Source of the DNA: Candidatus Aminicenantes bacterium
GTDB lineage: Bacteria > Acidobacteriota > Aminicenantia > UBA2199
Reading direction: 5' to 3'
DNA: 64,000 bases
NCBI GenBank assembly: GCA_011772425.1
Contig: WVZO01000485.1
Span: 40,514 to 104,513 of the forward strand
Every line of letters begins with the position of its first letter. Positions within the stretch are counted from its first letter, which is position 1. The translations under genes were made by a program, and so were the position numbers. Below are positions 7,708 to 56,300 of this stretch, one piece after another. Under the pieces are notes generated by a model. The model did not search any database, was not told where the DNA came from, and worked only from the letters and a program-made list of their open reading frames with translations.

Positions 7708-7708
7708 C

Positions 7709-7715
7709 GAGGTGA
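7709..7715 (+). promoter_or_regulatory. Shine-Dalgarno site for the proposed GTG 7721 start of g3
   Basis: GAGGTGA, 5 nt (8 nt from the GAGG core) before GTG 7721 and just after the g2 stop. Confidence 0.6.
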
Positions 7716-7720
7716 TAGCC

Positions 7721-34228: not shown

Positions 34229-35560
34229 ATGAACATAGAAGGAAAATTAAAAAACGACTTTGGGCCGTCGGAGAAGAAAGATTATTATGAGTTATCTTCG
34301 GCCCAGAAGAGATTTTACATTTTACATCAAATGGAGCCGCAGTGTACTAAATATAATATATCGACCCTGTCTGTACTGGAAGGCGAACTGGACCTGGAAT
34401 TATTGGAAAACATATTCCAGAGACTAATAAACAGGCACGAAAGTTTAAGAACCTCATTTATCCTGGTAGAAGGTAAACCGGTCCAGAAAATTTATAAACA
34501 TGTGGAATTTAAGATCGAGTATGATGAAGCAGATAGACCTGAAGAAGCAATATTAAAAGATTTTGTACGACCTTTTGATTTATCCCGTCCCCCCTTACTG
34601 AGGGTGAGATTGAGCAAGATAAATGAAAAGAAACACCTTCTTATATTCGATATGCATCAAATCACAGCAGATGCAGCATCTCAAGTACTACTGAAGAAAG
34701 AATTGATGGCATTATATGCCGGCAAGGAACTTGAGTCTTCAAGCATTCAATACAAAGATTATGCGGAATGGCAGAAACATATAAAACAAGAAGATTGGCT
34801 AAAAAGCCAGGAAGAGTATTGGTTAAACATGATTGCTGGAAAAATCTCCGTACTGAATCTTCCTACCGATTATTTGAGACCTGCAATTCAGAGTTTTGAA
34901 GGTGATTCATCAGGTTTTGAAATAAGCAGCGAAGAGACGACCGCCTTAAAAACACTGGCACTGGAACAAGAGACCACATTGTATGTGGTTTTCCTGGCAA
35001 TTTTTAATGTTTTCTTGAGCATTGTAAGCAACCAGGAAACGATCAGAGTCGGAACACCGGTGTCTGGTCGAATTGATAAGGATATAGAAAATGTCCTCGG
35101 GGTGCTTGAGAATAAACTCGTATTAGTTAATGATCCGGTTGGTGAAAAAACCTTTATAGAGTTTTTGGGAGAGGTAAAAAAGAAAACCTTAGAGGTATTT
35201 ACAAACCAGGATTATCCATATGAAGACCTGGTGGATAAAGTTGCAGCCGACACCGATATGAGCCGTAATCCTCTATTCGATATTATGTACGAATTTATGG
35301 AGTCTGATTATGAGATTCCGGAAATGGAGATATCATCGTTGAAGTTAAGACGTTATAAATATGGGAACGAGATAGGGACCACTGGTTTAGATTTGACTTT
35401 ACGAGGATTTGAGGAAGGAGATCGTCTGTTTTTTACTTTTGAATTCTGCACGAAGGTTTATAAAGAAGAAACGATCAAACGATTTATCGCTTATTTTAAA
35501 AGAATTGTATCGTCCATAATCACAGAGCCATTGCAAAAAATTGGGGCGATTGAGATTCTA
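34229..35560 (+). other. C*: full-length C-like domain at the N-terminus of g7 whose catalytic motif reads HQITAD instead of HHxxxDG
   Basis: YYELSSAQKRFYILHQ...LLIFDMHQITADAAS. The second His is replaced by CAA (Gln) at 34658-34660, and the Gly after Asp is replaced by Ala. Confidence 0.8.
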
Positions 35561-38500
35561 TCGGAAGCGGAAAAAAATCAATTATTATGTGGTTTTAATG
35601 ATACAAGTTCGCATTATCCCAGGGATAAGACCATCCATGAATTGTTTGAGGAGCAGGCAGATAGAGCCCCGGATAAAGTGGCTGTTGTGATGAATAATGA
35701 GTTCATTAAATACAGAGAATTGAATATGAGAGCCAACCGGGTGGCGAGAATGTTAAGAAAAAAGGGGGTTGGAGCCAACAGTATAGTAGCAATGATGCTG
35801 GAACCTTCAATTAATACTATCATCGGAATATTTGGGGTATTAAAAGCGGGTGGAGCATATTTGCCTATAGACCCGGATTATCCTAAGGATCGGATCACGT
35901 TCCTGCTGAATGACTCCACGGCCAAAATTTTATTGACTGACACAAAGAGCATTAAAAAATACCCTTTTACAGTTTTACAAGGCTTGAATATAACAAATGA
36001 CTCAATACAGGTAAAGGTTACAGGCACTCGTTCGCAGATTAAAGATTTAGATCATTTACCCATACCCAATCGATCCCTGGTGGATTATGAAAAGTACAAC
36101 CAATATATTGGTCAGGCAATGGTAAAGCATTGCATATCCGTGCAATCTACACGAGGATGTCCTTATAAATGTGCATATTGCCATAAAATCTGGCCTAAAA
36201 CCCATGTGTGGCGTTCCGCTGAAAGTATCTTTGCAGAAATAAAGCTTTATTATGATATGGGAGTCAGAAGATTTGCGTTTATCGATGATATCTTCAATTT
36301 GAATATTAAAAACAGTTCACGCGTATTAAATTTGATTATTGAAAATGGGTTGGATATACAGATTTTTTTCCCAAATGGTGTGCGTGGAGATATTTTAACT
36401 AAAGAATACATAGACCTATTGGTCCAGGCTGGAACGGTTGATCTTGCTTTTGCTTTGGAAACAGCGTCACCTCGGTTGCAGAAGCTAATTAGAAAGAATT
36501 TGAACCTTGAGAAGTTTAGAGAAAATCTTGAGTATGTATGCCAAAAATATCCTCATGTGATAGTTGAGCTTTTTACCATGCATGGCTATCCCTCGGAAAC
36601 AAAAGAAGAGGCCAGGATGACTTTGGATTTTATCAAGAGCATAAAATGGCTCCATTTTCCGTATGTTTTTGTTTTGATGATTTACCCCAACACGGATATG
36701 GAGAAATTGGCTTTGGAAAATGGGGTTTCAAGAGAAGCGATTCTTGCGTCCCAGGACAAACCTTTTCATGAATTACCCGAAACCTTACCTTTTGATAAAA
36801 GTTTTACATTAAAGTACCAGACTGAATTTACCAGCGAATACTTTTTATCCAAGGAAAGGCTGGTGCAGGTACTGCCGTATCAACTCAAGATTTTGACAGA
36901 AAGTGAAGTGATTCAAAAGTACAATAGCTATCTCCCGATTGATATTAATTGTTTGGATGATTTATTGGAATTTGCAGGGATTACATACGAGGAGTTGGGC
37001 GTCAAAGGATTACTGAATGAAGATTATATGGAGGTTCCTGATTTAAATAATAAGATGAGAAATGCCTTTGCATCTTCGTCAGTCAGGCCTTCCAAAGGTG
37101 CCCTGCGAGTTTTGCTCCTGGATTTATCCCAGCATTTTAGTAGAGGCAGCGATCAACTCTTTGACCTTATCGAGCCTCCTCTGGGGCTTATGTACCTTAT
37201 GACCTATTTAAACCACCGGTTCGGCAGCAATATTAAGGGAAGAATCGCAAAATCCATGATTGATTTTAACAGCTATGGAGAGCTGAAGTTGTTGTTGGAT
37301 GAATTTAAGCCAGAAATAATCGGAATACGAACATTGACGCTATTTAAAGATTTTTTTCATGAAACTGTCTCAAGGATTCGACAGTTTGGTGTGGATGCTC
37401 CCATCATTGCTGGAGGACCTTACGCTACAAGTACTTATCAGATCCTATTAATGGATCGGAATATTGATCTGGTAGTTCTGGGAGAAGGGGAAATAACTTT
37501 TAGCGAGATAATCGGGAAAATGATCGAGAACGATGGAAAATTCCTTCATGAGCATACCTTAAATAAAATCAGAGGGATTGCATTTATCCCAAAGAGTGAA
37601 GAACTCTCCAATGGCTTGGGCCGAGAGATAATTTTTATGGATGATCTCCCAAAAGAGACGTTAAATGAAGATGGTGAGAATTTACACCATGTCAATCAAC
37701 CCCAGGATTTAGCTTATGTGATTTATACTTCCGGTACCACTGGAAAACCAAAAGGTACACTTACTACTCATTCCAACGTCATCCGGGTTGTCAGGAACTC
37801 AAATTATATTGATTTGACCGAGAATGATAGGATATTACAGTTGTCCAGTTATACATTTGATGGGTCTGTATTCGATATTTATGGAGCACTCTTGAATGGG
37901 GCTTTGTTGCTAATGGTGAAAAAAGAGGATGTGTTATCGCCGGAAGTATTGGCTCAGTTGATTAAAAAGGAGGAGATAACCGTCTTTTTCGTAACAACGG
38001 CATTATTTAATGCTCTGGTTGATATAAATGTCACTTGTTTCGATCCTGTTAGGAAAGTTCTATTTGGGGGGGAACGGGTTTCTGTAAAACATACTGGGAG
38101 AGCTCTGGAATATTTGGGAAAGGACCGGATTATTCACGTTTACGGTCCCACCGAAACAACCGTTTATGCCACCTATTTTTTTGTTAATGAGATAGATAGA
38201 AACCTGGATACTATACCCATTGGTAAGCCAATTTCAAATACTACCGTATTCATACTGGACAATCGTTTTAAACCCGTGCCAATAGGTGTAAAAGGTGAGA
38301 TTTATATAGGAGGAGACGGTGTTGCCAGAGGATATCTAAATAGCCCGGAATTAACCTGGGAAAAATTTATTCCAAATCCTTTTACTGTAGAAGATCGGTT
38401 ATATAGAACTGGAGACCTGGCCCGATGGCTGCTGGATGGAAACATCGAGTTTTTTGGAAGAATCGATCACCAGGTGAAGATAAGGGGATATCGGGTGGAA

Positions 38501-41500
38501 TTGGATGAGATAAAAAATCATTTGGAAAAGTACCATCAAGTAAAAGAGGCTGTGGTATTGGTGAAGGAGGATGATACCAGGGGCAAACATCTGATCGCTT
38601 ATATTGTTCCATCCACGGATGAACCAATATTATTAACTGAATTGACGAAATTTTTATCTTTTCAACTGCCGGCTTATATGATACCCAGTTATTTTGTACC
38701 TTTAAAACAATTCCCGTTGACTGCAAACGGCAAAATAGATCGTAAAGCATTACCAGACCCGGGTGGTATAAGTTTAGACAGCGGTGTTGAATATATTGCC
38801 CCGGAAAATGAGGTGGAAATGCAACTAGTCGAAATCATGAGTAGGGTATTGGGGCGACCTAAAATTGGAATTCATGAGGATTTCTTTATGATTGGAGGCG
38901 ATTCCATCAAAGCTATCCAGGTGGCAGCGCGAATGAATGAGGCAGGATTTATGCTTAAAGTGAAAGACATTTTCCAGAATCCCCAAATATCGCTGTTAGC
39001 GTCTTTAGTAAAGGTTACAGAGCGAATTGGGGAGCAGACGGAAATCACCGGAACGTTTCCGTTAACTCCATTCCAGAAATGGTTTCTTAAAAATAAGGCA
39101 GCAGGCAGCTGTGTTTTTTCTCAAGGAGTGGTTCTCTATTCAAAAAAAGGGTTTGATGACGGTGCTGTTGAAGCAGTATTTAAAAAGATTCAGGCGCATC
39201 ATGATGTGCTGCGGATAACATTTAACCAGTTGGAAGACGGCGAGATCCTTCAAACCAACCATGGGTTGGAATATCCTCTCTCCTTGCAGGTTTTTGATTT
39301 AAAGAAACAGGAGAATGCCTTAAAAACTGTTGAAACAAAATCCCGGGAGATCCAGGCGGGCATTGACCTGGAAAATGGCCCGTTAATGAAAATCGGACTG
39401 TTTCACCAGGACGATGGAGACCGTTTATTAATCGCGGCCCACCCCCTGGTGATCGACGATATCTCGTGGGGCATTCTTCTTGAAGATATCGACCGCTTAT
39501 TTCAACAATATAGAAATGGAGAACTCTTTAAATTGCCTTCTAAGGCCCATTCCTTTAAGCTCTGGTCGGAGAAATTGTCCTGTTATGCTGAGAGCGAAAC
39601 CATCTCAAAGGAGAAAACCCACTGGGCGGCGTTGGAATCGGTTGAGGTACCAGAAATAGCAGGAGATAAAAAAGGGATAAATCTCTTCATTGAAGATACA
39701 GCTTCCATGTCATTTCATTTAAATGAAAATGAAACCCTTCGCTTGTTAACAAAGACAAATGAACCGTTTGGCACTGAAACCGCTGATATATTATTAATCG
39801 CCTTGGCTCTGGCAATGAACAAAACCTTTGGCCATACACAGGTAGCTGTTACCCTGGAAAGTGATGGAAGACCCGATATCTTTGAAGGTATAAATATAAG
39901 CCGGACACTGGGATGCTTTAGAACGTTGTATCCCGTATTAATGAATGTATCCTTTGAAGATGATCTGGTCCGGCAGATTAAAGAAATTAAAGAATGTTTG
40001 CATCAGGTTCCCAATAAAGGGATCGGTTATGGAATTTTGAGATATTTAGCCCCGGCAAAGCAAGGCGACCAACCTGATGCCATTGATTTCAGGTTAAATC
40101 CCCAAAGTTATTTTAAATACCGCGGAGAACGGGATGATCGTGTGAGTGTAAATGAACATCCAGGGTCCTTTACAATTGCAAAGGAACTCGCAGCCCTCCC
40201 CTTTGATTTAGGCTGGCCAGGGGAGTTTGACCTGGAGTTCCAGGGGATGATTGTGGATAAACGGTTGGTTATGTCTCTTTATTTTAACAAAAAATACAAA
40301 AAAGAAACCATTGAAACACTGCTAAATAATTATAAAACTCAACTGATTCGTATTATAACTTTTTGTGGAGGTCGGAAAGAACGAGTGCTTACCCCTTCGG
40401 ATTTAACCTACAAAGGATTGTCCATCGAGAGTCTAGACCGGTTAACCCAGCAGTACCAAATAGAAGATATCTATAAATTATCTCCACTTCAGGAAGGGAT
40501 GCTATTTCATTCTATCTATGAAAAAGAGAAAGTGGAAACAAAAAGGGTTCCTTATTTTTTGCAGACCTTCTTTCGCATAAAGATTAAGTTGGATCTGGCA
40601 TTGGTTAAGAAAAGTTTAAGTGAATTAATTAAACGTCACGATATACTGCGAACGGTTTTTATTTATAGGGAATTGGGGTATCCACTCCAGGTAGTTTTGA
40701 AAGACCAGCCCCTGAATTTCTACTACAAAGATATAAGCGGAATGAATGAAGAAAAGGAAAAAGAGGAATTTACAAGAAAATTCAAAGAAAAGGACAGATA
40801 CCTGGGATTTGATCTGGGCAAAGACAGTTTAATGCGGGTGGCAGTTATTCAATTGGAAGAGTCAGAATATGAATTTGTCTGGAGTATTCATCACATATTG
40901 ATGGATGGGTGGTGCGTTTCGATATTAATCTTTGAATATTTTGAAATTTATAGCAGTCTCTTTGAAGGTAAATCGCCTCAATTACCGGCTGTTACGCCCT
41001 ATAAAAAGTATATTGAATGGTTAGAAATACAAAATAGAAAGAAAGCCATAGATTATTGGCTAAAATACCTCGCTAACTATAAAGAACTCACGGGGCTTCC
41101 TAAAAAAGATGCGTTCCAGGTCAGTAAGAACGAATATAAATATGAACAAGAATTTTTGATACTAGATAATGAAATGACAAATGGGTTGAATCAACTTGCA
41201 GGAAAGAATCAGGTTACACTAAATACCATATTGCAGGCGGTTTGGGGAATTGTTTTAGGTGGATTTGTCGGGAAACAAGATGCGGTATTCGGCACGGTAG
41301 TATCCGGTCGCCCTTCTCAATTGAAGGGGGTGGAATCAATGGTGGGGCTATTTATAAATACAATCCCAGTTCGAATTCGCTTTGAAGAAAAAACGAAATT
41401 TATAAATCTGGCAAAAAAGATCCAGGAAGAAGCAGTCGAATGTCAACCTTACCACTATTATTCATTAGCTGAGATTCAAGCTCAATGTGCATTGAAACAG

Positions 41501-41884
41501 GGTTTGCTGGATCATATTTTCGTATTTGAGAACCTGCCCGGTGTGGAGCACATCGCTAGTAAGATGGGCTTGAATAATAGTAAAGATGAAATTACATTGG
41601 ATTTCTCCAATGTAAATACCTATGATCCATCCAATTATGATCTGAATGTGATCATCCTCCCCCGGGATCAATTAACCATACTTTTGAATTATAATGGGAA
41701 TGTGTATGAAAGAGAAGTGATGGAAAGAACAGCAGATTGCTTCAACCGGGTTATCGAGCAGATACTGAAAAACAGAGACATTTATATCGGTGAAGTCGAT
41801 CTTTTGTCTGAAGCTGAAAAAGAAGAAATTCTTGCCAGAAAAGAAGAAGATGGAGAAGGAATTCAGATAGATTTTGATATTTAA
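34229..41884 (+). CDS. g7 NRPS, C* (His motif lost) / A interrupted by an rSAM+B12-like cassette / T / E* (decayed) / C / tail
   Basis: 2551-aa ORF. Full-length C-like domain with MHQITAD (HQITAD at 34655-34672). A2 core LKAGGAYLPIDP at 35840-35875. CPYKCAYC at 36158-36181. A3 core LAYVIYTSGTTGKPKG at 37709-37756. T: GGDS at 38894-38905. E-like domain with HPLVIDD at 39440-39460 and FKYRGE in place of FNYLGQ. C: SPLQEGMLFH and HHILMDGW at 40889-40912. Ends ..EDGEGIQIDFDI. Confidence 0.95.
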   Translation: MNIEGKLKNDFGPSEKKDYYELSSAQKRFYILHQMEPQCTKYNISTLSVLEGELDLELLENIFQRLINRHESLRTSFILVEGKPVQKIYKHVEFKIEYDEADRPEEAILKDFVRPFDLSRPPLLRVRLSKINEKKHLLIFDMHQITADAASQVLLKKELMALYAGKELESSSIQYKDYAEWQKHIKQEDWLKSQEEYWLNMIAGKISVLNLPTDYLRPAIQSFEGDSSGFEISSEETTALKTLALEQETTLYVVFLAIFNVFLSIVSNQETIRVGTPVSGRIDKDIENVLGVLENKLVLVNDPVGEKTFIEFLGEVKKKTLEVFTNQDYPYEDLVDKVAADTDMSRNPLFDIMYEFMESDYEIPEMEISSLKLRRYKYGNEIGTTGLDLTLRGFEEGDRLFFTFEFCTKVYKEETIKRFIAYFKRIVSSIITEPLQKIGAIEILSEAEKNQLLCGFNDTSSHYPRDKTIHELFEEQADRAPDKVAVVMNNEFIKYRELNMRANRVARMLRKKGVGANSIVAMMLEPSINTIIGIFGVLKAGGAYLPIDPDYPKDRITFLLNDSTAKILLTDTKSIKKYPFTVLQGLNITNDSIQVKVTGTRSQIKDLDHLPIPNRSLVDYEKYNQYIGQAMVKHCISVQSTRGCPYKCAYCHKIWPKTHVWRSAESIFAEIKLYYDMGVRRFAFIDDIFNLNIKNSSRVLNLIIENGLDIQIFFPNGVRGDILTKEYIDLLVQAGTVDLAFALETASPRLQKLIRKNLNLEKFRENLEYVCQKYPHVIVELFTMHGYPSETKEEARMTLDFIKSIKWLHFPYVFVLMIYPNTDMEKLALENGVSREAILASQDKPFHELPETLPFDKSFTLKYQTEFTSEYFLSKERLVQVLPYQLKILTESEVIQKYNSYLPIDINCLDDLLEFAGITYEELGVKGLLNEDYMEVPDLNNKMRNAFASSSVRPSKGALRVLLLDLSQHFSRGSDQLFDLIEPPLGLMYLMTYLNHRFGSNIKGRIAKSMIDFNSYGELKLLLDEFKPEIIGIRTLTLFKDFFHETVSRIRQFGVDAPIIAGGPYATSTYQILLMDRNIDLVVLGEGEITFSEIIGKMIENDGKFLHEHTLNKIRGIAFIPKSEELSNGLGREIIFMDDLPKETLNEDGENLHHVNQPQDLAYVIYTSGTTGKPKGTLTTHSNVIRVVRNSNYIDLTENDRILQLSSYTFDGSVFDIYGALLNGALLLMVKKEDVLSPEVLAQLIKKEEITVFFVTTALFNALVDINVTCFDPVRKVLFGGERVSVKHTGRALEYLGKDRIIHVYGPTETTVYATYFFVNEIDRNLDTIPIGKPISNTTVFILDNRFKPVPIGVKGEIYIGGDGVARGYLNSPELTWEKFIPNPFTVEDRLYRTGDLARWLLDGNIEFFGRIDHQVKIRGYRVELDEIKNHLEKYHQVKEAVVLVKEDDTRGKHLIAYIVPSTDEPILLTELTKFLSFQLPAYMIPSYFVPLKQFPLTANGKIDRKALPDPGGISLDSGVEYIAPENEVEMQLVEIMSRVLGRPKIGIHEDFFMIGGDSIKAIQVAARMNEAGFMLKVKDIFQNPQISLLASLVKVTERIGEQTEITGTFPLTPFQKWFLKNKAAGSCVFSQGVVLYSKKGFDDGAVEAVFKKIQAHHDVLRITFNQLEDGEILQTNHGLEYPLSLQVFDLKKQENALKTVETKSREIQAGIDLENGPLMKIGLFHQDDGDRLLIAAHPLVIDDISWGILLEDIDRLFQQYRNGELFKLPSKAHSFKLWSEKLSCYAESETISKEKTHWAALESVEVPEIAGDKKGINLFIEDTASMSFHLNENETLRLLTKTNEPFGTETADILLIALALAMNKTFGHTQVAVTLESDGRPDIFEGINISRTLGCFRTLYPVLMNVSFEDDLVRQIKEIKECLHQVPNKGIGYGILRYLAPAKQGDQPDAIDFRLNPQSYFKYRGERDDRVSVNEHPGSFTIAKELAALPFDLGWPGEFDLEFQGMIVDKRLVMSLYFNKKYKKETIETLLNNYKTQLIRIITFCGGRKERVLTPSDLTYKGLSIESLDRLTQQYQIEDIYKLSPLQEGMLFHSIYEKEKVETKRVPYFLQTFFRIKIKLDLALVKKSLSELIKRHDILRTVFIYRELGYPLQVVLKDQPLNFYYKDISGMNEEKEKEEFTRKFKEKDRYLGFDLGKDSLMRVAVIQLEESEYEFVWSIHHILMDGWCVSILIFEYFEIYSSLFEGKSPQLPAVTPYKKYIEWLEIQNRKKAIDYWLKYLANYKELTGLPKKDAFQVSKNEYKYEQEFLILDNEMTNGLNQLAGKNQVTLNTILQAVWGIVLGGFVGKQDAVFGTVVSGRPSQLKGVESMVGLFINTIPVRIRFEEKTKFINLAKKIQEEAVECQPYHYYSLAEIQAQCALKQGLLDHIFVFENLPGVEHIASKMGLNNSKDEITLDFSNVNTYDPSNYDLNVIILPRDQLTILLNYNGNVYEREVMERTADCFNRVIEQILKNRDIYIGEVDLLSEAEKEEILARKEEDGEGIQIDFDI
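35600..38760 (+). other. g7 interrupted A domain; code DGFFLGVVYK (Ile signature)
   Basis: A1-A2 lie before the cassette and A3-A10 after it. FDGSVFD.., ..ITVFFVTTA.., ..VLFGGE.., HVYGPTETTVYAT, NGK. Confidence 0.7.
36044..37620 (+). other. Embedded cassette 1 (g7): radical SAM domain followed by a B12-binding-like Rossmann domain
   Basis: DLDHLPIPNRSLVDYEKY..VQSTRGCPYKCAYC (36158-36181) ..RRFAFIDDIFN..ALETASPRLQKLI..ELFTMHGYPSET... From ~37103: LRVLLLDLSQ..PPLGLMYLMTYL..PEIIGIRTLT..PIIAGGPYATS..DLVVLGEGEITFSEII..IRGIAFIP. Confidence 0.85.
39040..40380 (+). other. E* domain of g7, motifs decayed
   Basis: LTPFQKWFL.. is retained, but HHxxxDG reads HPLVIDD (39440-39460) and FNYLGQ reads FKYRGE (~40109-40130). 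Confidence 0.75.
41846..41881 (+). other. C-terminal tail of g7: EDGEGIQIDFDI
   Basis: Last 12 codons before the stop. Confidence 0.7.
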
Positions 41885-43571
41885 TGGAGATTTGCCTGTG
41901 AGTAACATAGTTGATTGTCTAATAATTGGGCATAATGAGATGGATTTTGTTGAATATGAGAAAAATATCCGGAAAATGGGTAAGGATTCCGGCGCTTACC
42001 GGGATTTGAATTTGAGTTTTATCTGTCATAACAATATCCCCCATCACGCTTCGGGAATTTTTAATTTATTATGTAAAAACTCCAAAACCAGTCTCAGCCA
42101 TGGAGAATCTTTCAGCGCTGCCATCGCTTACCTGGGCACCTATTTATATCGAAGAGGATTTACCTTTGATTATATTAACTCGTTCCAGGATGAGAAAGAT
42201 GTGTTAGCAGAAAAATTGAAGAAAGAAAATATTCTAACCATCGCAATTACAACGACTTTATATGTTTCGGTATTCCCTATACTGGAGATTGTGGATTTTA
42301 TAAAGAGGCGCAATCGCAGTGCCAAGATAATAGTAGGTGGTCCCTTTGTTTCTACTCAGGTTCGCAATGTAAATGCTGTGACATCGACATATCTTTTTAA
42401 CTCCATCGGGGCGGATGTTTATGTGAACAGTTCACAAGGAGAAGCCACCCTGGTAAAAATAATAGACGCCTTGAAGAATGAGCGCCCTTTGAACCGGATT
42501 TCCAATATTTATTATAAAACGGAAAATCGCAGTTATACTTCGACGCCTGTTATAAGAGAAAATAATCGATTATCCGAAAATATGGTGGATTGGAGTCTTT
42601 TTTCCCATCGAGTAGGGGAGTATGTGGTATTACGGACATCGATATCCTGTCCGTTTTCATGTGCCTTTTGTGGTTTCCCGGAACATGCCGGGAAATATCA
42701 AACAGCCAATGTAAAGGCAATAGAAGAGGAATTGGATTCATTGGGAACAATAGAATCGGTTAAAAGTATCTATTTTATAGATGATACGTTTAATGTTCCC
42801 ATGAATCGATTTAAAGAGATTCTAAGAATGATGATAAAAAACAAAACTAAATTCAAGTGGCACTCTAACTTTAGATGCCAATTTGCAGATAGGGAGATGG
42901 TAGATTTAATGAAAGCGAGTGGTTGTGAAGGTGTATTCCTGGGAATTGAATCGGGAAATGATCAGATTCTTAAAAATATGAACAAATCCGCCAATATAGA
43001 GAAATATCTTGAAGGGATTGCCATGTTAAAGGAAGCCGGGATCATAACCTATGGTTCTTTTATCATTGGATTTCCCGGTGAGACGTCTGAAACACTGCAG
43101 GATACGGTACGATTTATTGAAGAAAGTGGGGTCGATTTGTACAGGGCGCAGTTGTGGTATTGTGAACCTATTACCCCCATATGGAAAATGAGGGAAAAGT
43201 ATAAAATTACAGGTTCTAATTTTGAATGGGCACACGCCACAATGGATGCAAAAACAGCCGCAAACTTGGTGGAAGAGATGTTTCTTTCAATTAAGAATTC
43301 CCTATGGGTTCCTCAATATGGTTTTGATTTCTGTAATTTATTTCATTTGACAAACCGGGGAATCGATTGGGGCAAAATCAAAAATTTCATAAGAAGTTTT
43401 AATGAAGGAATAAAAGACAAATTAATAAATCCTTCTGTCACTGAAGTTAGTGCTGAAGTTATGAACCGGATAAAAAACGCTTTGATCCTGGATGATAGTC
43501 ATTATTCCGCTATCATGACAGATAAACCGGGAGAGGAAGATGATGATTTAATCATTGATTTTGAACTTTAA
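41874..43571 (+). CDS. g8 stand-alone B12-binding-like / radical SAM enzyme with acidic tail
   Basis: 565-aa ORF from TTG 41874, which overlaps the g7 end. The in-frame GTG 41898 has GGAGA at 41886-41890 and is an equally good start. Rossmann-like ILTIAITTT..AKIIVGGPFVS..SSQGEATLVKII. rSAM motif CPFSCAFC at 42648-42671, then ..GVFLGIESGNDQIL... Ends ..EEDDDLIIDFEL. Confidence 0.9.
   Translation: MIFNGDLPVSNIVDCLIIGHNEMDFVEYEKNIRKMGKDSGAYRDLNLSFICHNNIPHHASGIFNLLCKNSKTSLSHGESFSAAIAYLGTYLYRRGFTFDYINSFQDEKDVLAEKLKKENILTIAITTTLYVSVFPILEIVDFIKRRNRSAKIIVGGPFVSTQVRNVNAVTSTYLFNSIGADVYVNSSQGEATLVKIIDALKNERPLNRISNIYYKTENRSYTSTPVIRENNRLSENMVDWSLFSHRVGEYVVLRTSISCPFSCAFCGFPEHAGKYQTANVKAIEEELDSLGTIESVKSIYFIDDTFNVPMNRFKEILRMMIKNKTKFKWHSNFRCQFADREMVDLMKASGCEGVFLGIESGNDQILKNMNKSANIEKYLEGIAMLKEAGIITYGSFIIGFPGETSETLQDTVRFIEESGVDLYRAQLWYCEPITPIWKMREKYKITGSNFEWAHATMDAKTAANLVEEMFLSIKNSLWVPQYGFDFCNLFHLTNRGIDWGKIKNFIRSFNEGIKDKLINPSVTEVSAEVMNRIKNALILDDSHYSAIMTDKPGEEDDDLIIDFEL
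43533..43568 (+). other. C-terminal tail of g8 (free rSAM): EEDDDLIIDFEL
   Basis: Last 12 codons before the stop. The IDF-x-[IL] core matches g7. Confidence 0.7.
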
Positions 43572-43577
43572 TAAAAA

Positions 43578-43584
43578 AAGGAGG
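43578..43584 (+). promoter_or_regulatory. Shine-Dalgarno site of g9 (supports ATG 43591)
   Basis: AAGGAGG, 6 nt before ATG 43591. Confidence 0.8.
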
Positions 43585-43590
43585 AAGGAT

Positions 43591-44320
43591 ATGAATAGAA
43601 ATGTTCTTATTCCTATAGATGGGTTTGAAAATGAAAAGATATATTGGTTGAACAAATTGTCCGGAGAATTAAGTGAAGTAAAGTTAGTGGCCGATTTCCC
43701 AGGGAAGGAATGCTGCAGAACAGCAAATTATAAACTATTATTTGAAAAAGAAATAACACAACACTTAATCCGTATAAGTAAGAATAATGATTTGTCTTTT
43801 TTTGTGATTCTATTGACCTCTTTTAAGATACTGCTTTTTAAATATACCCAGCAGAATGAAATTATCGTCGCATCTCCAACTTATAGTAAAAGCAATCAGA
43901 AGTATAATCGAAATGTAGTGTTTAGAGATTTTATATACCCGGAAATGACCTTTAAGGAAATATTATTGAAAGTTAAACAAACTGTAGGGGAAGGATATAG
44001 AAACCAGTATTTTCCCATTAGACGATTAATCGATTTATTGGATGTAGGAGATACGTTATCATTATTCCGGGTCATTGTATTATTGGAGAATATTCATGAC
44101 AAAGAATCCGTGGATGAGATTACAAGGGATTTTGAGAATGATATTACCCTTTCCTTTCGAAGAACTGGCGAAGAATTGGAAGCCAATGTAATCTACAATT
44201 CAAGTTTGTTTAAGGAGGAAACGGTACAAAGGTTATTTGTTAGTTTTCAGCATGTTTTGATTCAAATATCGGGGAATACCGATATTGAAGTAAAGAACAT
44301 TGAAACGATTCCCAGGGAAG
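43591..44320 (+). other. C-half at the N-terminus of g9
   Basis: MNRNVLIPIDGFENEKIYWLNKLSGEL.. through ..IETIPREVTNEILHEFNKT, with no His motif. Confidence 0.8.
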
Positions 44321-50300: not shown

Positions 50301-53300
50301 GGAGGAGAGTTTCACGGCACTGCTTGAAGAAGGCCGGCAGGAGACCCTGGATTCCTATGAACACCAGGATTATCCCTTTAATCTCCTGGTTGAACAATTG
50401 GGCCTGGATCGTGATGTCAGCCAATCTCCCCTGTTCAATGTAATGGTTGCTCACATTAACCTGGGGAAACAGGAAGACAAACTGTTGATGGACGGGATTA
50501 CCCTTGAAGATTCCTCTGAACTTGAGAATTTTAACATGAGTGCCTTTGATTTGATATTTTTTATGGAGGAGGTGGAGGACCATATAAATTGTATATTCAA
50601 TTATAATAGCGATTTATTCGAAGCGGCTACAATCGAACGTATGTCCGTTAATTTCTTAACGTTCCTGGAAAATGCCGTCGATAACCCGGATTTACCGGTC
50701 TCGCAATTGAGTGTGATCGCTGAGGCGGAATCTCGAAAGATAATATGCGAGTTCAATGAAAACCAGCAGGAGTTTCCGTCCCTGACACTCCAGGAGCTCT
50801 TTGAACACCAGGTGGAAAAATCCCCGGGGAAAACAGCCGTTGTTTATTATAAGGATGAAATCACCTATAACGATTTAAATAAGAAAGCCAATCGATTGGC
50901 CCATTACCTAAGAGACCAGTATGGTGTGGGAAAAGGTAAGATTATCGGCATATGTATCGACCGCAGCATCGAGATGGTAACAGCCCTGTTGGGAATCATT
51001 AAAGCCGGGGCGGGTTATGTGGCCATTGATCCCACTTACCCGGAAGATCGCGTATTACATATGCTCAATGATAGTCAGGCTGATTTATTAATCATTGACA
51101 AATTAAGGCCCCACCTGTTTGCAAACTATAAAGGGAAAATGATTGATATCCATTCGGGTTGGACGGATATCTCGTTAAAATCCACTGAAAATCCGGAACT
51201 GATCAATGATTTTTCCGATATCTTGTATGTGATATACACTTCCGGTTCAACCGGGACCCCCAATGGTGCGATGCTGTCTCAGGGGATTTTATCCAATCTT
51301 ATCCAGTGGCAGGAAAATAACACTTCTATCGACGCTTCCGGGCCCTGCTTACAATTTACCTCCGTGAATTTTTGTGTCTCCTTCCAGGAGATAATGATTA
51401 CGCTGACCTCCGGGGGAGAAGTCCACCTGATTGACGATATTGAACGGCGTGATATCGATTATTTAATGGATTTTCTTTCAGAGCATAAAATTGAGTTGTT
51501 GTACTTGCCCTTTTCCTATCTTAATTTTCTATTTAATGAATCCAGCCGATGGGGAGAGAGTTTTAAGCATGAATTAAAGCATATTATCACTGCCGGTGAG
51601 CAATTAAAAATAACCAGGGGATTAAAGGAGTTCCTGGAGTGCAATCGACATATAAAACTGCACAATCATTACGGTTCATCGGAGATGCATGTGGTTACTT
51701 CGTACACCATGGATTATACCGAAGCGGATACCCGTCCCGTTCCACCGGCGGGAAAGCCCATTGCCAACACGAGGATATTTATCCTGGATGAACACCGTAA
51801 TCCCGTACCTATCGGCGTTTGGGGAGAATTGTGCATTGAAGGCAGTTGGGAAGTGGCAGGATATATTAATAACAGAGAACTTACCGATAAGAAGCTTATA
51901 TCCCACCCTGTTTTAAATGAAGGCAATAAACATCTTTATTGTTCCGGCGATATTGGGCGTTGGCTGCCGGACGGCAATATAGAATTGAGGGGAAGAAAAG
52001 ACACGCAGGTTAAAGTTCGGGGTTTCAGGGTAGAACTCAGTGAGATAGAGAGTAAAATATTAGCTGTAGAGGGAGTAAACGATTGTGTGGCAGTCGTGAA
52101 ATCGGATGAGAAGGGAGAGAAATACCTGGCCGCTTATGTGGTGGTGGAAGAGGTTGATGTGGGTGAAATTAAAAAGCAGCTCAACAATTATTTACCCCAG
52201 TACATGATACCCAAATTATTGGTACTGGATAAATTGCCTCTTATGCACAATGGAAAAGTGGATCGAGATAGGTTACCCGACCCGGAAACAATGGTAAAGG
52301 CTATTTATGATATTAAACCGGGTACGGTTTCTTCTTTATTACGTTCAGGGGATTTTCAACCGCAGGAATGGCAAAATATATCGCTCCTGGATGCGGATAA
52401 ATCTACAGTGGAAAAGGTGATTGCCTATTTTACCTCCCTGGTCCGGGATCAATTTCTTGATGAGACCGTTGGGGTGAGCCAGATCGATATTAATGTGCTT
52501 ACCGGGAAGGATAAGGAACGGTTATTGTCGGAGGCGGGTGAACCCGGGGTGTCGTCAAGCCATGACCGAACACTGCAGGGGTTTTTTGAAGAGCAGGTTA
52601 GCGAAACGCCGCGCAATATTGCTGTTATAGAGTATATGGAATGCTCTACTCTCACCTACGAAGAATTAAATAAAAGGTCTAATCAATTAGCCCATCTCTT
52701 AAGAAGAAAAGGCGTTCAACCGGGCACTGTGGTGGGAGTGATGATAAAACCTGGCATAGAGATGATTATCGGGATAGCCGCTGTTTTAAAGGCGGGAGGC
52801 GGTTACCTGGCCGTGGACCGGGACCTTTCATCAGACGAAGCGATTGCATTGTTAAAAGAGAACAATGTCTCAATGGTGTTGAGCAGCACCGCTGCCATGG
52901 GTAAACATCCTTTTAAAAAATTCCTGGGATTTGCAACAAACGGGGTAGAACCTCATATTTCCTGCATCCGCCAGCAGATCACTGATTTTAACGGTTTACC
53001 CATTCCTGACCGGTCGCTGGTGGATTATGAAAAGTACGGTAAAAATATCGGTTTGGCCATGGCTAAGCATACCATTACGCTGCAAGCCACCCGAGGTTGT
53101 CCTTATAATTGCCTTTATTGTCATAAAATCTGGCCGAAAAAACATGTGATTCGTTCGGCGGAAAATATTTACCAGGAGCTTAAGCTTTACTACGACATGG
53201 GCGTTCGCCGGTTTGTGTTTGTGGATGATATTTTTAACCTGGATATGGAAAACAGCAAGAAATTCTTCGAAGCCATCATTGCCAACGGCCTGGAGGTTCA

Positions 53301-56300
53301 GCTTTTCTTTCCCAACGGCTTACGCAGCGATCTGTTAACCAGAGATTATATTGACCTGATGGTAAAGGCAGGAACGGTTTCGCTGGGGTTGGCCCTGGAG
53401 ACCGCCTCGCCCCGGCTGCAAAAGTTGATTAAAAAGAACCTGAACCTGGAGAAACTCCATGAAAACCTAAAGTATCTTTGCTCCCATTATCCCCAGGTGA
53501 TCGTAGAGCTTTTCTTGATGCACGGTTTTCCCACTGAAACCGAAGAAGAAGCCCGGATGACTTTAGATTTCCTTAAAAGTCTCAAGTGGATCGATTTTCC
53601 CTATTTTCATATCCTGAAGATTTATCCCCATACGGATATGGCTGAGATGGCGGTACAAAACGGCGTATCGGCAGAGGCCATCGCCCGTTCGGCAGACCTG
53701 GCATATCACCAATTGCCTGAAACCCTTCCCTTTGATAAAAGCGTTACCCTTCGCTTCCAGACTGAATTCTTGAATGACTATTTCCTCCGAAAAGACCGGT
53801 TGTCGGCCAAACTCCCCTATCAAATGAGGGTATTGACAGAAGATGAAATCGTCCAAAAATACAACAGCTACCTGCCGGTGGACATTAAAACCTTTGAAGA
53901 TTTCCTGGATTTTGCCGGCATTTCAAAAGAAGAATTGATAACCCTGGAATTCCTGGATGAGGAAGCGGTATCAACTCCCGGTTTAAATGATAAACTCATG
54001 GATCATTTTCCTGTAAATAAACCGGGTAAGAATGCCTTAAGGATTTTGCTGCTGGATTTATCCCAGTTTTTCAGTGGAGAAAAAGATATTCTTTATGATG
54101 GTGTAGAGCCGCCGTTGGGTTTGATGTACTTGCTGACCTGGTTAAACCGGCAATTGGGAAACAAAATTGCCGGGAAGATTGCCAAATCACGCATCGATTT
54201 TGACAATTATAAGCAATTGAAAGCCCTGCTTGATGAGTTTCAAGCGGATATAATCGGCATACGAACCTTAACCTATTATGGAGATTTCTTCCATAAAACG
54301 GTTTCCCTTATCCGGCAGTGGGGCATCGATGTTCCCATTGTAGCAGGGGGCCCATATGCTACCAGCGATTTCGCCACTATTTTGCAGGACCCCAATGTAG
54401 ATCTGGTGGTATTGAGTGAAGGTGAGTTAACATTTTGTGAATTGATGGAAAAAGTCCTGGAAAATAACGGTGAGCTGCCGGATGACAGTGTGTTAAGAGA
54501 TATCCCCGGGCTCGCTTTTATCCCCGGTACCCATAAAGATGATCGTTACCGTAAAGAGAAGCGGGAAATTCTCCTGTTGGACGAGCTCAGGGATATGTTG
54601 AGTGAAGAGCCGGATAAAAACCCTGAACCTGTTAATGAGCTGACCGATCTGGCTGCTGTCATCTATGGGACTGGTTCAAACCGGCAGCAAGTCAGACTCC
54701 CGGTGTCGCATAAAAATGCAATTCAAATGCTATCCGGGTTAAGGGAAGATTTTTATGCCGGGTACAACAGCAGCGGCGGTGCGGAATTCCCGGTGATGAT
54801 CGGTTCATGGGTATTTAACGGTTCCCTGGAACAACTGTTTGCAGCCCTGCTGCAAGGGGGAACGCTGTGTGTGCCCCCGGGAGATACCCGCATTGATGAT
54901 ATCGGTTTATTGGAGTATTATAAGGAACGGAATAAGGAATCCGCCGGGACTTTCCTACACCTGCGGTTAATGTGGAAAGGCGGTCATAAAGGTATGAAGC
55001 AACTTCCAGGTGAGGAAGATTATACAGCACCCACCAACCAAATAGAAGAAGTTTTAGTGGATATCTGGTCGGAGGTCCTGGGAATAGGCAAAGACATGAT
55101 TGGTATTGATTCCGACTTTTTTGAGGTGGGAGGGCATTCCTTGAAAGCCACTATCGTGGTATCCAAAATACATAAAAAATTCAATGTAAGAGTACCGTTG
55201 GCTGAGATGTTTAAAGCCTCTACCATCCGTGAGTTGGTCCAATATATAACGGAAGCCTCTAAAGTTGAATACACCCACGTGGAGGCAGCGGAGGAGAAGG
55301 AATATTACCCCTTATCTCCGGCACAAAAGCGGTTGTATATTGCGCAGCAATTCGACTTGAAGAGTTCCGGTTACAATTTGCCCCGTATATTTATTCTGGA
55401 GGGAAAACCGGATGCAAAGAAGATGAATGATACCTTTAAGCAAATGATTGAAAGACATGAAAGCTTTCGATCGTCTTTTATAAATGTAAATGATGAGCCG
55501 GTCCAAAAAATCCGTGATCATGTGGAATTTGGAATCGAAGATTATCAGGTTGAAGTTGACGTTCCCATTGAGGAGATAACCCGGGGCTTCATTCGTGCTT
55601 TTGACCTATCGCAGGCACCGCTGCTGCGGGTGGGATTGATGCATATGGGAAAAGAAAAATATATCCTGATGATGGATATGCATCATATCATCACGGACGG
55701 TATTTCCATGGCGATTTTCGTCAACGAATGGATGGCCCTGTACTGTGGAGAGGAATTACCGGCGTTAAAGCTTCATTACAAGGATTATTCGGAGTGGCAA
55801 GGGCGGTTGTGGAAAAATGACTCCCAGGCTCTGGAAAGCCAGGAAAACTTCTGGTTGAAGCAGTTTGAAGGTGAAATATCCGCATTGACTCTCCCATTGG
55901 ACTACGAGAGACCGGGCGTATTTCAGTTTGAAGGGAAGCAATACATTTTTGAAATAGGCAAAGAAGAGACAGAGGCATTAAGAAACGTGATAAAAGAGGA
56001 AGATGTAACTCTTTTTATGTTTTTGCTTGCGGTTTTTTATGTTTTGTTGGCAAAAACCAGTGGTCAGGGGGACATCGTGGTGGGAATCCCGGTGATGGGA
56101 CGAAGGCATGCCGATTTTCAGTCGATAATCGGGATGTTCGTCAACTCCCTGGCCTTGAGGAATTACCCCGAAGCAAAGAAAACCTTCAAAGAATTCTTAA
56201 TGGAGTTAAAAGAAAGAGCTTTGAAGGCATTTGATAACCAGGACTACCAGTTTGATGAATTAGTGGATAGGTTGGATATTGAACGGAAACCCAATCGAAA

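What the first reader, a model, noticed from the sequence alone, without database searches (positions are those of the whole stretch)
36044..37620. Embedded cassettes are circularly permuted relative to the free enzymes: rSAM first, B12-like domain second
Seen: in g2 and g8 the Rossmann/B12-like domain comes first (..GGxxxx..GEG[QE]..), and the ..[DN]LP.P...CxxxCxxC rSAM core follows. In all three cassettes the sequence starts with DLDHLPIPNRSLVDYEKY..CPYKCAYC. The B12-like domain (LRVLLLD..GGPYATS..GEGEITF..IRGIAFIP) comes last, from ~37103, ~54037 and ~62235 respectively. The cassette begins exactly at what is normally the B12-to-rSAM linker, and it ends with the ..GIA[FY][IV]P.. strand that normally precedes that linker. 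Established: class B rSAM enzymes normally have the cobalamin domain N-terminal. Exceptions with a C-terminal cobalamin domain exist, such as Mmp10. Inference: permutation may bring the cassette termini together so it can be inserted into the A2-A3 loop.
Basis: partly seen in the sequence, partly recalled or inferred. Interest (0 to 1): 0.7.

Follow-up and report, generated by a model that had tools for sequence, protein, structure and literature searches.

The report
Circularly permuted B12 radical-SAM cassette in NRPS
Three copies of a cobalamin-type radical SAM enzyme sit inside peptide-synthetase adenylation domains with their two halves in reversed order (a true circular permutation), but free-standing enzymes elsewhere share this order, so the permutation was not made for the insertion.

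Summary
All three cassettes (nt 36044-37591, 52984-54525, 61185-62723; about 62% identical to each other) have the radical SAM core first and a Pfam B12-binding domain last. The free enzymes g2 and g8 in the same window have the canonical B12-first order.

It is a genuine circular permutation. When the B12 part is moved back in front in silico, the cassette aligns in one collinear, gap-free stretch across the artificial junction. This holds against g8 and against at least 12 curated class B radical SAM models. The segment that joins the old termini is the least conserved and only indel-prone part of the family.

The interpretation needs correcting. The permuted order is a trait of a broad family with at least 47% identity. 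The family includes many free-standing 540-580 aa enzymes, found in NRPS/PKS clusters and also in non-NRPS neighbourhoods. So the permutation is not a consequence of embedding. At most it pre-adapted the enzyme for insertion into the a2-a3 loop, because it places the two termini next to each other.

AlphaFold models are confident for the cassette (pLDDT 92) and for the whole interrupted A domain (pLDDT 89), whose A fold is predicted intact. The likely function is in-cis C-methylation of carrier-bound isoleucine; this is inferred, not shown. I found no publication describing this.

The parts
34229..41884 (+). g7, an NRPS subunit (2551 aa) that carries cassette 1 inside its A domain
   Evidence: ORF list, translation, A-domain mapping
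35561..35938 (+). g7 host A domain, N-terminal fragment (motifs a1-a2, aa 445-570)
   Evidence: phmmer with an uninterrupted A domain: query positions 2-135, E=4e-37. The a2 motif KAGGAYLPID starts at nt 35843.
35939..36043 (+). N-side linker (35 aa). Its last ~10 aa (TGTRSQIK) are conserved in free-standing homologs too.
   Evidence: pLDDT falls to 63 at model residues 141-150
36044..37591 (+). Cassette 1 (516 aa): a circularly permuted class B radical SAM enzyme
   Evidence: AF2 pLDDT 92.3, pTM 0.91
36143..36634 (+). Radical SAM core of cassette 1 (PF04055). The CPYKCAYC cluster motif is at nt 36158-36181.
   Evidence: Pfam E=2.4e-19. C39, C43 and C46 are invariant in 64 homologs. The model shows a (beta/alpha)6 pattern.
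36731..36943 (+). Helical domain that is C-terminal in canonical class B enzymes (cassette aa ~230-300)
   Evidence: Helices 230-318 in the model. Class B profiles align up to native aa ~262.
36944..37102 (+). Neo-linker that joins the former C-terminus to the former N-terminus (cassette aa 301-353)
   Evidence: Highest column entropy in the family (2.2-2.5 against a mean of 1.47). The one adjoining indel-prone block (341-360, gaps 0.10) overlaps the end of this linker.
37103..37591 (+). B12-binding Rossmann domain of cassette 1 (LRVLLLD..GGPYATS..GEGE..GIAFIP)
   Evidence: PF02310 at 32.3 bits, cutoff 32.1. KedN5 model positions 35-157. G457, G458, E481, G482 and E483 are invariant. Alternating beta/alpha pattern.
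37592..37702 (+). C-side linker (37 aa) back into the A domain
   Evidence: pLDDT 67 at model residues 681-690
37703..38752 (+). g7 host A domain, C-terminal part (a3-a10). Stachelhaus code DGFFLGVVYK (Ile-type).
   Evidence: phmmer positions 180-541, E=4e-104; code; Foldseek TMt up to 0.91 to uninterrupted A domains
52498..52899 (+). g9 vestigial second A domain (A'), N fragment, with degenerate a2 (LKAGGGYLAVD)
   Evidence: phmmer positions 1-140, E=8e-29; sequence
52984..54525 (+). Cassette 2 (514 aa), same permuted order
   Evidence: Pfam rSAM at aa 35-197, B12 at aa 373-487; 62% identical to cassette 1
54526..54879 (+). g9 A' remnant. It is homologous to the A domain only up to a4. The a3 P-loop is degenerate (YGTGSNRQQVR) and a5-a10 are deleted. 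It runs straight into the PCP linker.
   Evidence: phmmer against the g7 and g10 C-parts; no C-part hit
60678..61154 (+). g10 host A domain, N fragment (a1-a2)
   Evidence: phmmer positions 6-159, E=1.6e-41
61185..62723 (+). Cassette 3 (513 aa), same permuted order
   Evidence: Pfam rSAM at aa 35-197, B12 at aa 409-486
62829..63896 (+). g10 host A domain, C part (a3-a10), code DGFFLGVVYK (Ile-type)
   Evidence: phmmer positions 178-541, E=6e-104
5800..7707 (+). g2, a free canonical-order enzyme: two CDGSH motifs, then a B12 domain, then the rSAM core
   Evidence: Pfam, NCBIfam
41874..43571 (+). g8, a free canonical-order enzyme of the PhpK family (B12 domain, then rSAM core)
   Evidence: TIGR04479 at 652.6 bits, cutoff 600; Pfam

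Best explanation
Each cassette is a complete cobalamin-type (class B) radical SAM enzyme whose domain order has been rotated. The canonical order is B12 Rossmann domain, then rSAM barrel, then C-terminal helical domain. In the cassette it is rSAM barrel, helical domain, a new variable linker, then B12 domain.

The cut lies exactly at the canonical B12-to-rSAM linker. The new N- and C-termini are therefore residues that are covalent neighbours in ordinary class B enzymes.

This rotated layout is the shared trait of a distinct, widespread clade. The clade exists in at least five forms:
- free-standing enzymes
- a short A-fragment plus cassette protein
- cassette-PCP fusions
- cassettes inserted in the a2-a3 loop of intact A domains (g7, g10)
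- a cassette in a dead, truncated A-domain shell (g9)

The permutation was therefore not created by the insertion. Because the termini are adjacent, the enzyme could be spliced into a surface loop without disturbing either fold (inference).

Functionally (inferred): the host A domain loads isoleucine onto the downstream PCP. The tethered aminoacyl thioester is then presented to the cassette. The cassette uses a [4Fe-4S]/SAM-derived 5'-deoxyadenosyl radical and methylcobalamin to methylate an unactivated carbon before condensation.
For: Domain order by Pfam in all three cassettes and in the homologs checked by position.

Permutation signature: cassette aa 1-230 match profile positions ~170-400 of class B models, while aa 395-520 match positions 35-157. 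PDB 9ccb (MgmA) shows the same swapped pair of matches.

Re-permutation test:
- With aa 351-516 moved in front of aa 1-350, phmmer gives one alignment to g8 through the junction (59-364 against 102-416). The score rises from 47.4 to 52.2 bits.
- At least 12 NCBIfam class B models then align in a single stretch. Examples are PhpK 30-367 against 73-410 (equal lengths), BchE 27-355 against 20-354 and BzaD 29-395 against 20-400.
- The neo-linker is the least conserved segment of the family.

Family-wide trait: 120 of the 120 best database hits list PF04055 and PF02310 or are truncated. About 85 of them are 529-601 aa free proteins; their sequences are.

Folds: cassette pLDDT 92.3 and pTM 0.91. Interrupted A domain pLDDT 89 and pTM 0.82. 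Its A parts superpose on uninterrupted A domains across the insertion (TMt 0.88-0.91).

Catalytic motifs are invariant: CxxxCxxC, FIDD, GGP and GEGE.

Ile code in both intact host A domains. The dead A' shell in g9 shows that the cassette works as a tailoring domain independent of host adenylation.

Precedent: PDB entry 9n1b is described as CysS with a pantetheinylated ligand. That CysS acts on a carrier-bound substrate is from my own knowledge, not a tool result.
Against: The N-to-C terminal distance could not be measured, because no coordinates were returned. Foldseek is sequence-order dependent and so aligned only part of the cassette to class B structures (TMq 0.34-0.43). The 3D equivalence of the domain arrangement therefore rests on homology and on pTM.

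For cassette 1 the PF02310 score only just passes the cutoff (32.3 against 32.1).

Which came first, the free or the embedded form, is unresolved.

The chemistry is not shown. The best PDB sequence match is AprD4, a diol dehydratase. Class B enzymes also catalyse reactions other than methylation.

An uninterrupted A domain (g9_A2) has the same Ile code, so the code does not identify the methylated residue uniquely.
Confidence: 0.75

Rival explanations
1. The permutation evolved as an adaptation to embedding. A canonical B12-rSAM enzyme was rearranged at, or because of, its insertion into the A domain, and the free-standing permuted enzymes are secondary escapes from NRPS genes.
For: Embedded and free forms are interspersed in NJ trees and the root is unresolved. 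Many free forms lie next to NRPS genes. The ~725-aa proteins made of an A fragment plus a cassette look like break-off products.
Against: Free permuted enzymes occur with no NRPS genes in the ~4 kb flanks I examined, in Kordiimonadales and Pelagibacterales MAGs. The family spans many phyla. A circular permutation normally requires a duplication and fusion of the whole gene, which is simpler to imagine for a free gene.
Confidence: 0.15
2. This is not a circular permutation but an independent domain fusion. An rSAM core acquired an unrelated C-terminal cobalamin domain, as in Mmp10.
For: The domain order is the same as in Mmp10. For a two-module protein, AB to BA can in principle arise by shuffling.
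Against: The re-permuted sequence aligns through the junction without a gap to many class B models. The C-terminal domain matches the N-terminal region of class B models (KedN5 positions 35-157; PF19864 positions 88-143). Mmp10 is absent from the phmmer PDB hits at E<=1. Mmp10 also superposes poorly (TMq 0.30-0.32, rmsd over 15 A).
Confidence: 0.05
3. The cassettes are relics or perform chemistry other than methylation (dehydratase, epimerase or cyclase type), and the B12-like domain is only structural, as in AprD4.
For: The best solved-structure match is AprD4 (E=4.6e-15). No NCBIfam model reaches its cutoff.
Against: The Fe-S cysteines and the GGP and GEGE cobalamin-domain motifs are invariant across 64 sequences of about 50-60% identity, which indicates purifying selection on both domains. 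Three diverged copies are all intact.
Confidence: 0.2

Closest known systems
Class B (cobalamin-dependent) radical SAM methyltransferases with solved structures, such as TsrM, TokK, CysS and MgmA, and the PhpK/BchE/ApyD families
   Same: The same three building blocks are present: a B12 Rossmann domain with GGP and GEGE motifs, a CxxxCxxC (beta/alpha)6 core and a helical domain. Profile-level homology is significant. PDB entry 9n1b is described as CysS with a pantetheinylated ligand.
   Different: The domain order is rotated, with B12 last instead of first. The cassettes form a separate clade: at least 47% identity within it, and at most 40% identity to other class B relatives found in the same scan. 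No curated NCBIfam model claims them, with best scores of about 90 bits against cutoffs of 250-750.
Interrupted adenylation domains (A-M-A; families 3, 4 and 7 with a2-a3 interruptions; Lundy, Mori and Garneau-Tsodikova 2020, PMC8341866)
   Same: A catalytic tailoring domain is inserted in the a2-a3 loop of an otherwise complete A domain. The A fold is predicted to be preserved.
   Different: According to that census, all known inserted M domains are class I (Rossmann) SAM methyltransferases of ~260-390 aa. Here the insert is a ~516 aa two-cofactor radical SAM/B12 enzyme. One host A domain (in g9) is a truncated, catalytically dead shell placed behind an intact A domain.
Mmp10 (methyl-coenzyme M reductase arginine C-methyltransferase)
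   Same: Radical SAM domain at the N-terminus and cobalamin-binding domain at the C-terminus.
   Different: There is no detectable sequence match. The global structural match is poor (TMq 0.30-0.32, rmsd 15-16 A). The cassette is collinear with canonical class B enzymes after rotation, so it is a separate origin of the same order.
DscE, a free-standing cobalamin rSAM C-methyltransferase acting on the nonribosomal discodermins (PMC12858407)
   Same: A radical SAM C-methyltransferase associated with an NRPS pathway, described there as an unusual enzyme combination.
   Different: DscE acts in trans and methylated isolated discodermins in vitro, consistent with late-stage action. Here the enzyme is covalently embedded in the module. 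The domain order of DscE was not checked.

Membership tests
Class B (cobalamin-dependent) radical SAM enzymes | CxxxCxxC [4Fe-4S]/SAM motif in a radical SAM (PF04055) core | tested here: met
   PF04055 E=2.4e-19, 1.7e-21 and 3.3e-19. The three Cys are invariant in 64 homologs.
Class B (cobalamin-dependent) radical SAM enzymes | Cobalamin-binding Rossmann domain (PF02310) | tested here: met
   32.3, 40.5 and 37.5 bits against a cutoff of 32.1. The GGP and GEGE motifs are invariant.
Class B (cobalamin-dependent) radical SAM enzymes | Cobalamin domain N-terminal to the radical SAM core (usual layout) | tested here: not met
   The B12 domain is C-terminal in all three cassettes and in the whole clade.
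Class B (cobalamin-dependent) radical SAM enzymes | Binds cobalamin and transfers methyl from methylcobalamin to a substrate radical | not testable with these tools
   Needs purified protein, UV-vis or EPR spectroscopy and product mass spectrometry.
Circular permutant of a known fold | After rotation, the sequence is collinear with the parent family through the old junction | tested here: met
   Single-stretch alignments to g8 and to at least 12 NCBIfam models across position 166|167.
Circular permutant of a known fold | The new connection between the former termini is a poorly conserved linker | tested here: met
   Entropy 2.2-2.5 at cassette aa 301-340, and the only gaps at aa 341-360.
Circular permutant of a known fold | The 3D arrangement is superposable on the parent with a permutation-aware alignment, and the new termini are adjacent | tested here: inconclusive
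   Only sequential Foldseek was available (TMq 0.34-0.43 to AprD4, MgmA and TsrM). No coordinates were returned. Indirect support: pTM 0.91 and an intact host A fold around the insert.
Interrupted adenylation domains | A complete A domain (a1-a10) split by an inserted catalytic domain at a2-a3, a6-a7 or a8-a9 | tested here: met
   In g7 and g10 the A halves cover positions 2-135 / 180-541 and 6-159 / 178-541 of an intact A domain. The a2 and a3 motifs flank the insert. In g9 the host is truncated after a4.
Interrupted adenylation domains | The inserted domain is a class I SAM-dependent methyltransferase | tested here: not met
   The insert is PF04055 plus PF02310. The census states that all known inserts are class I.
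Mmp10-like radical SAM methyltransferases | Sequence and structural similarity to Mmp10 over both domains | tested here: not met
   Not among the PDB phmmer hits at E<=1. Foldseek TMq 0.30-0.32, rmsd over 15 A.
PhpK family radical SAM P-methyltransferase (TIGR04479), for g8 only | Score above the curated cutoff over the full model length | tested here: met
   g8 scores 652.6 bits against a cutoff of 600, aa 14-511 on model positions 2-502 of 504. The cassettes score only ~90 bits.

The most novel reading that the evidence does not exclude
A previously undescribed clade of circularly permuted cobalamin radical SAM enzymes has adjacent termini. This let the enzyme be spliced repeatedly into the a2-a3 loop of NRPS adenylation domains, or into dead A-domain shells. 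That would create the first radical-SAM-interrupted A domains. They would methylate unactivated carbons of carrier-bound residues (here Ile) in cis during nonribosomal assembly.
Probability: 0.45. Interest if true: 0.8.

Novelty: new variant of a known kind. Interest (0 to 1): 0.6.

Why it matters
Cobalamin radical SAM methyltransferases install methyl groups on unactivated carbons. This chemistry is hard to copy synthetically and has been associated mainly with RiPPs and free tailoring enzymes.

A version wired directly into NRPS modules would extend the catalogue of interrupted A domains beyond class I methyltransferases. It would also explain heavily C-methylated nonribosomal residues. The cassette would be a natural, modular unit: it has adjacent termini and is tolerated in intact A domains, in dead A-domain shells, as PCP fusions and as a free enzyme. 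That makes it a candidate for engineering C-methylation into assembly lines.

The permutation is also a clean natural case for asking how domain order affects a two-cofactor enzyme. Two genomes deposited under species or strain names carry the family and could serve as experimental entry points:
- Desulfosediminicola flagellatus IMCC35005, embedded form
- [Clostridium] polysaccharolyticum, free form

Tried and rejected
- Mmp10-like origin. Rejected: no sequence hit and a poor structural match.
- Rooting the permuted family with canonical class B outgroups, to decide whether free or embedded forms are ancestral. A BLOSUM-distance NJ tree put the non-NRPS alphaproteobacterial free forms basal. 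Kimura-distance bootstraps gave no support for any basal lineage, and only 69-75% support for monophyly. One bootstrap script timed out. The direction is left open.
- First composite alignment for the full interrupted A domain. It misaligned uninterrupted A domains onto the cassette. I fixed this by supplying the A halves as separate rows.
- Looking up the window's source through g8. This failed because the TTG start means the exact product is not on record.
- Ten literature searches found no description of rSAM-interrupted A domains or of permuted class B enzymes. The library lacks most subscription-journal papers, so absence is not proof.
- Direct measurement of the N-to-C distance and a permutation-aware superposition. 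Neither was possible, because model coordinates are not exposed and re-permuted sequences are not accepted by the structure tool.
- Misassembly or chance. Rejected: there are three diverged intact copies and hundreds of homologs.
Full report
**Setting**

The window is one large NRPS/PKS gene cluster, with all genes on the + strand. Gene numbering:
- g1: 323-5710
- g2: 5800-7707
- g3: 7682-10432
- g4: 10434-23330
- g5: 23360-28072
- g6: 28162-34185
- g7: 34229-41884
- g8: 41874-43571
- g9: 43555-56649
- g10: 56730 to the end of the window

The finding concerns a ~516-aa insert in the A domain of g7 and two paralogous inserts in g9 and g10.

**Checking the observation**

The three cassettes are found by their end motifs at nt 36044-37591, 52984-54525 and 61185-62723. 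They are 62% identical to each other in every pair.

Pfam places Radical_SAM before B12-binding in all three, and each hit is above Pfam's gathering score:
- Cassette 1: E=2.4e-19, then 32.3 bits against a cutoff of 32.1.
- Cassettes 2 and 3: rSAM at aa 35-197, then B12 at aa 373-487 (40.5 bits) and aa 409-486 (37.5 bits).

The free enzymes of the window have the opposite, canonical order:
- g2: B12 at aa 210-288, then rSAM at aa 340-497. This B12 hit scores 22.0 bits, below the 32.1-bit cutoff.
- g8: B12 at aa 81-165, then rSAM at aa 258-415.

The inserts lie between A-domain motifs a2 and a3. The a2-to-a3 spacing is 627 and 623 aa in g7 and g10, against 75-83 aa in uninterrupted A domains of the same window. 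Only 35 aa lie between the A fragment and the cassette, so there is no room for an upstream B12 domain.

**Is it a real circular permutation?**

Four lines of evidence say yes.

1. Against curated class B models, the native cassette gives two matches in swapped order. Residues 1-230 match profile positions ~170-400. Residues 395-520 match positions 35-157 of the KedN5 model. The solved MgmA structure 9ccb shows the same swapped pair.

2. I moved residues 351-516 in front of residues 1-350 in silico. The re-permuted sequence aligns to g8 in one stretch that runs straight through the artificial junction '...GIAFIP|DLDHLPIP...', covering 59-364 against 102-416. The score rises from 47.4 to 52.2 bits.

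3. The re-permuted sequence also aligns in a single collinear stretch to at least 12 NCBIfam class B models:
   - PhpK: 30-367 against 73-410, which are equal lengths
   - ApyD: 68-364 against 70-364
   - BchE: 27-355 against 20-354
   - BzaD: 29-395 against 20-400
   - the MJ_0865/MgmA model: 80-428 against 49-397

   The native termini therefore coincide, to within a residue or two, with the canonical B12-to-rSAM linker.

4. The segment that now joins the former C-terminal helical domain to strand 1 of the B12 domain (cassette aa ~301-353) is the least conserved part of a 64-sequence family alignment. Column entropy there is 2.2-2.5, against a mean of 1.47. The only indel-prone block (aa 341-360) overlaps its end. 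This is what a neo-linker should look like.

An independent Mmp10-like fusion is unlikely. Mmp10 is not among the sequence hits. It also superposes poorly, with TMq 0.30-0.32 and rmsd 15-16 A.

**The key correction: the permuted order is not specific to embedding**

A search of the 5.8-billion-protein collection with cassette 1 returned 806 relatives. In the best 120, the precomputed domain lists put Radical_SAM before B12-binding. About 85 of these are free-standing proteins of 529-601 aa that cover 100% of the cassette at 49-64% identity.

Their sequences begin 15-40 aa before the 'LP.PDRSLVDYEKY' motif and end at, or shortly after, 'GIAF'. Pfam coordinates confirm the order in P0102, P0009, P0003, L021 and L022.

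Free members occur in several contexts:
- Beside NRPS/PKS genes in [Clostridium] polysaccharolyticum, where the next gene is a canonical-order B12-rSAM.
- As three tandem copies next to an NRPS that also carries an embedded copy, in a JGI metagenome contig.
- In Kordiimonadales and Pelagibacterales MAGs, with no NRPS genes in the ~4 kb flanks. The neighbours there are a transketolase-like protein, a DUF4910/M28-like protein, an rSAM-SPASM protein, a glutamine-synthetase-like protein, an alpha/beta hydrolase, a 4HBT thioesterase and an N-acetyltransferase-like protein.

In one-genome-per-species data the clade (at least 47% identity over the full length) appears in Clostridia, Halanaerobiales, Aminicenantes, Acidobacteriota, Bacteroidales, Chloroflexota, Desulfobacterota and Alphaproteobacteria. 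Below that there is a drop to at most 40% identity for the other class B relatives in the scan.

Of the 21 best genome loci, 4 are free-standing and 17 lie in long open frames. Thirteen of those 17 show a recognisable a2 motif upstream, and 11 show an a3 motif downstream. One embedded example is in the complete genome of Desulfosediminicola flagellatus IMCC35005, where Pfam gives C-A(N)-rSAM-B12-A(C)-PCP-C.

Other architectures also exist:
- ~725-aa proteins consisting of an a1-a2 fragment, the cassette and an acidic tail
- cassette-PCP fusions

The permutation is thus a clade trait, and embedding is one of several deployments.

**Direction of evolution**

NJ trees intermix embedded and free forms. 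Rooting with canonical outgroups is unstable. One distance measure puts the non-NRPS free forms basal. Bootstraps with another measure support no basal lineage and give 69-75% support for monophyly of the permuted clade. I therefore cannot say which state came first. The existence of free forms outside NRPS neighbourhoods makes 'permutation created by insertion' the less likely reading.

**Structure**

AlphaFold2 with the family alignment gives a confident cassette model, with pLDDT 92.3 and pTM 0.91. Its layout is:
- a (beta/alpha)6 core at aa ~30-225
- a helical domain at aa ~230-318
- a linker
- a five-strand alternating beta/alpha domain at aa 354-516

The best solved matches are AprD4, MgmA and TsrM. 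They are partial, as expected for a sequence-order-dependent aligner.

The whole interrupted A domain of g7 (1066 aa) was modelled with a composite alignment. It gives pLDDT 89 and pTM 0.82, with confidence dips only at the two linkers, at the Fe-S loop and at the a3 P-loop. Foldseek aligns this model to uninterrupted A domains across the insert:
- TMt 0.88-0.91 to ApnA A1 (4d56, 4d4g, 4d4i)
- TMt 0.75 to GrsA-PheA (1amu)

The two A halves are therefore predicted to reassemble into a normal A fold. This requires the two attachment points of the cassette to be close together.

The case for adjacent termini rests on that result and on the fact that the termini are sequence neighbours in canonical homologs. 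A direct distance could not be read out.

**How it probably works (inferred)**

The invariant residues indicate selection on both cofactor sites:
- the CxxxCxxC cysteines
- the FIDD and E-T-A-S-P SAM-site motifs
- the GGP and GEGE motifs of the cobalamin domain

The intact host A domains of g7 and g10 both have the Stachelhaus code DGFFLGVVYK, which I recall as the isoleucine code. I extracted the codes against a GrsA segment recalled from memory; that segment reproduces the known code DAWTIAAICK.

The most likely mechanism has four steps:
1. The A domain loads Ile on the PCP.
2. The phosphopantetheine arm delivers Ile-S-PCP to the cassette.
3. A 5'-deoxyadenosyl radical abstracts a hydrogen from an unactivated carbon.
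4. Methylcobalamin donates the methyl group.

A pantetheinylated ligand is listed for the canonical enzyme CysS in PDB 9n1b.

In g9 the cassette sits in a second, dead A domain:
- The a2 and a3 motifs are degenerate.
- Everything from a5 to a10 is deleted.
- The remnant runs directly into the PCP linker.
- It lies downstream of an intact A domain whose code is Pro-like with Asp235 replaced by Cys.

This shows that the A-domain shell serves as a scaffold and that the cassette is an autonomous tailoring domain. Chemistry other than methylation cannot be excluded, because the best sequence match in the PDB is the dehydratase AprD4.

**Comparison with what is known**

The cassette works like a class B rSAM methyltransferase and carries its defining domains, but it fails the usual 'B12 domain first' layout.

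The host fits the definition of an interrupted A domain at the known a2-a3 site. However, the 2020 census of interrupted A domains found only class I methyltransferases as inserts and does not mention radical SAM or cobalamin (PMC8341866).

A 2025 paper still calls the mere association of an NRPS with a free rSAM C-methyltransferase (DscE) unusual (PMC12858407).

Ten literature searches found no description of the permuted clade or of rSAM-interrupted A domains. The library lacks most subscription-journal papers, so this is not proof of novelty. Database annotation of the family is generic: 'B12-binding domain-containing radical SAM protein', 'YgiQ family' or 'AMP-binding protein'.

**Verdict**

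- The circular permutation is real and precisely placed.
Adjacent termini plausibly enabled insertion, but the permutation is a family-wide trait that free enzymes share.
- I rate it a new variant of a known kind, with moderate to high interest (0.6).

Noticed in passing
window 5668-5710, 7680-7707, 34140-34185, 41840-41884, 43530-43571, 56610-56649 (C-termini of g1, g2, g6, g7, g8, g9): Six proteins of the cluster end in a similar acidic tail with a D-F-x-F pattern: SDFGF, DDGDFGFQ, TDFGF, IQIDFDI, LIIDFEL and DVGFDF. They include the two free canonical rSAM enzymes g2 and g8. This may be a docking motif that recruits subunits and trans-acting enzymes to the assembly line.
   Followed up: partly
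P0006-P0089 (free-standing permuted homologs): About half of the free-standing permuted enzymes carry a conserved C-terminal tail '..QFNDDLE(D/N)E' some 30-40 aa after the cassette end. The ~725-aa proteins made of an A fragment plus a cassette end in '..(D/N)YDF'. Clostridial members have no tail. This may be a docking peptide that replaces the covalent link.
   Followed up: no
window 41874-43571 (g8): g8 passes the curated cutoff of the PhpK family of radical SAM P-methyltransferases (652.6 bits against 600, full length). This raises the possibility of P-methylation or phosphinate chemistry, or of a C-methylating subfamily member, in an NRPS cluster.
   Followed up: no
window 5800-6000 (N-terminus of g2): g2 carries two N-terminal CDGSH-type iron-sulfur/zinc-finger motifs (C-x-C-G-K-S..PYCDH-x-H, PF09360 E=9e-11) fused in front of its B12-rSAM body. 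This could be a built-in electron-transfer module.
   Followed up: no
window 50725-55100 (g9 aa 2391-3850): This module has the unusual layout C-A-[A' fragment-cassette-A' remnant]-PCP, with an intact A domain directly followed by a vestigial second A domain. There is no PCP between them. The intact A domain has the code CVQYIAHVVK: Pro-like, but with the alpha-amino-binding Asp235 replaced by Cys.
   Followed up: partly
window, all A domains: Predicted Stachelhaus codes: g4_A1 DFWNIGMVHK (Thr), g4_A3 DVQFVAHVVK (Pro), g4_A4 DVWHISLVDK (Ser), g10_A1 DALWLGGTFK (Val-like), g9_A2 DGFFLGVVYK (Ile, uninterrupted). Unassigned: g1 DVTNFALVYK, g3 DGTITAEVMK, g4_A2 DIWEITADDK and g9_A1 DGSTVAEVGK. The substrate assignments are from memory of published codes.
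   Followed up: partly
L001 10001-12981 ([Clostridium] polysaccharolyticum FOHN01000005.1): A free permuted enzyme (rSAM then B12, 546 aa) is followed 15 nt later by a canonical-order B12-rSAM gene (441 aa), at the end of an NRPS/PKS operon. Both layouts therefore coexist as neighbours in a genome deposited under a species name.
   Followed up: partly
L021 and L022 (Kordiimonadales and Pelagibacterales MAGs): Free permuted family members (47-48% identical to the cassette) have no NRPS genes in the ~4 kb flanks. Their neighbours are a transketolase-like protein, a DUF4910/M28-like protein, an rSAM-SPASM protein, a glutamine-synthetase-like protein, a thioesterase and an N-acetyltransferase-like protein. 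This suggests a different, unknown pathway for the same enzyme family.
   Followed up: partly
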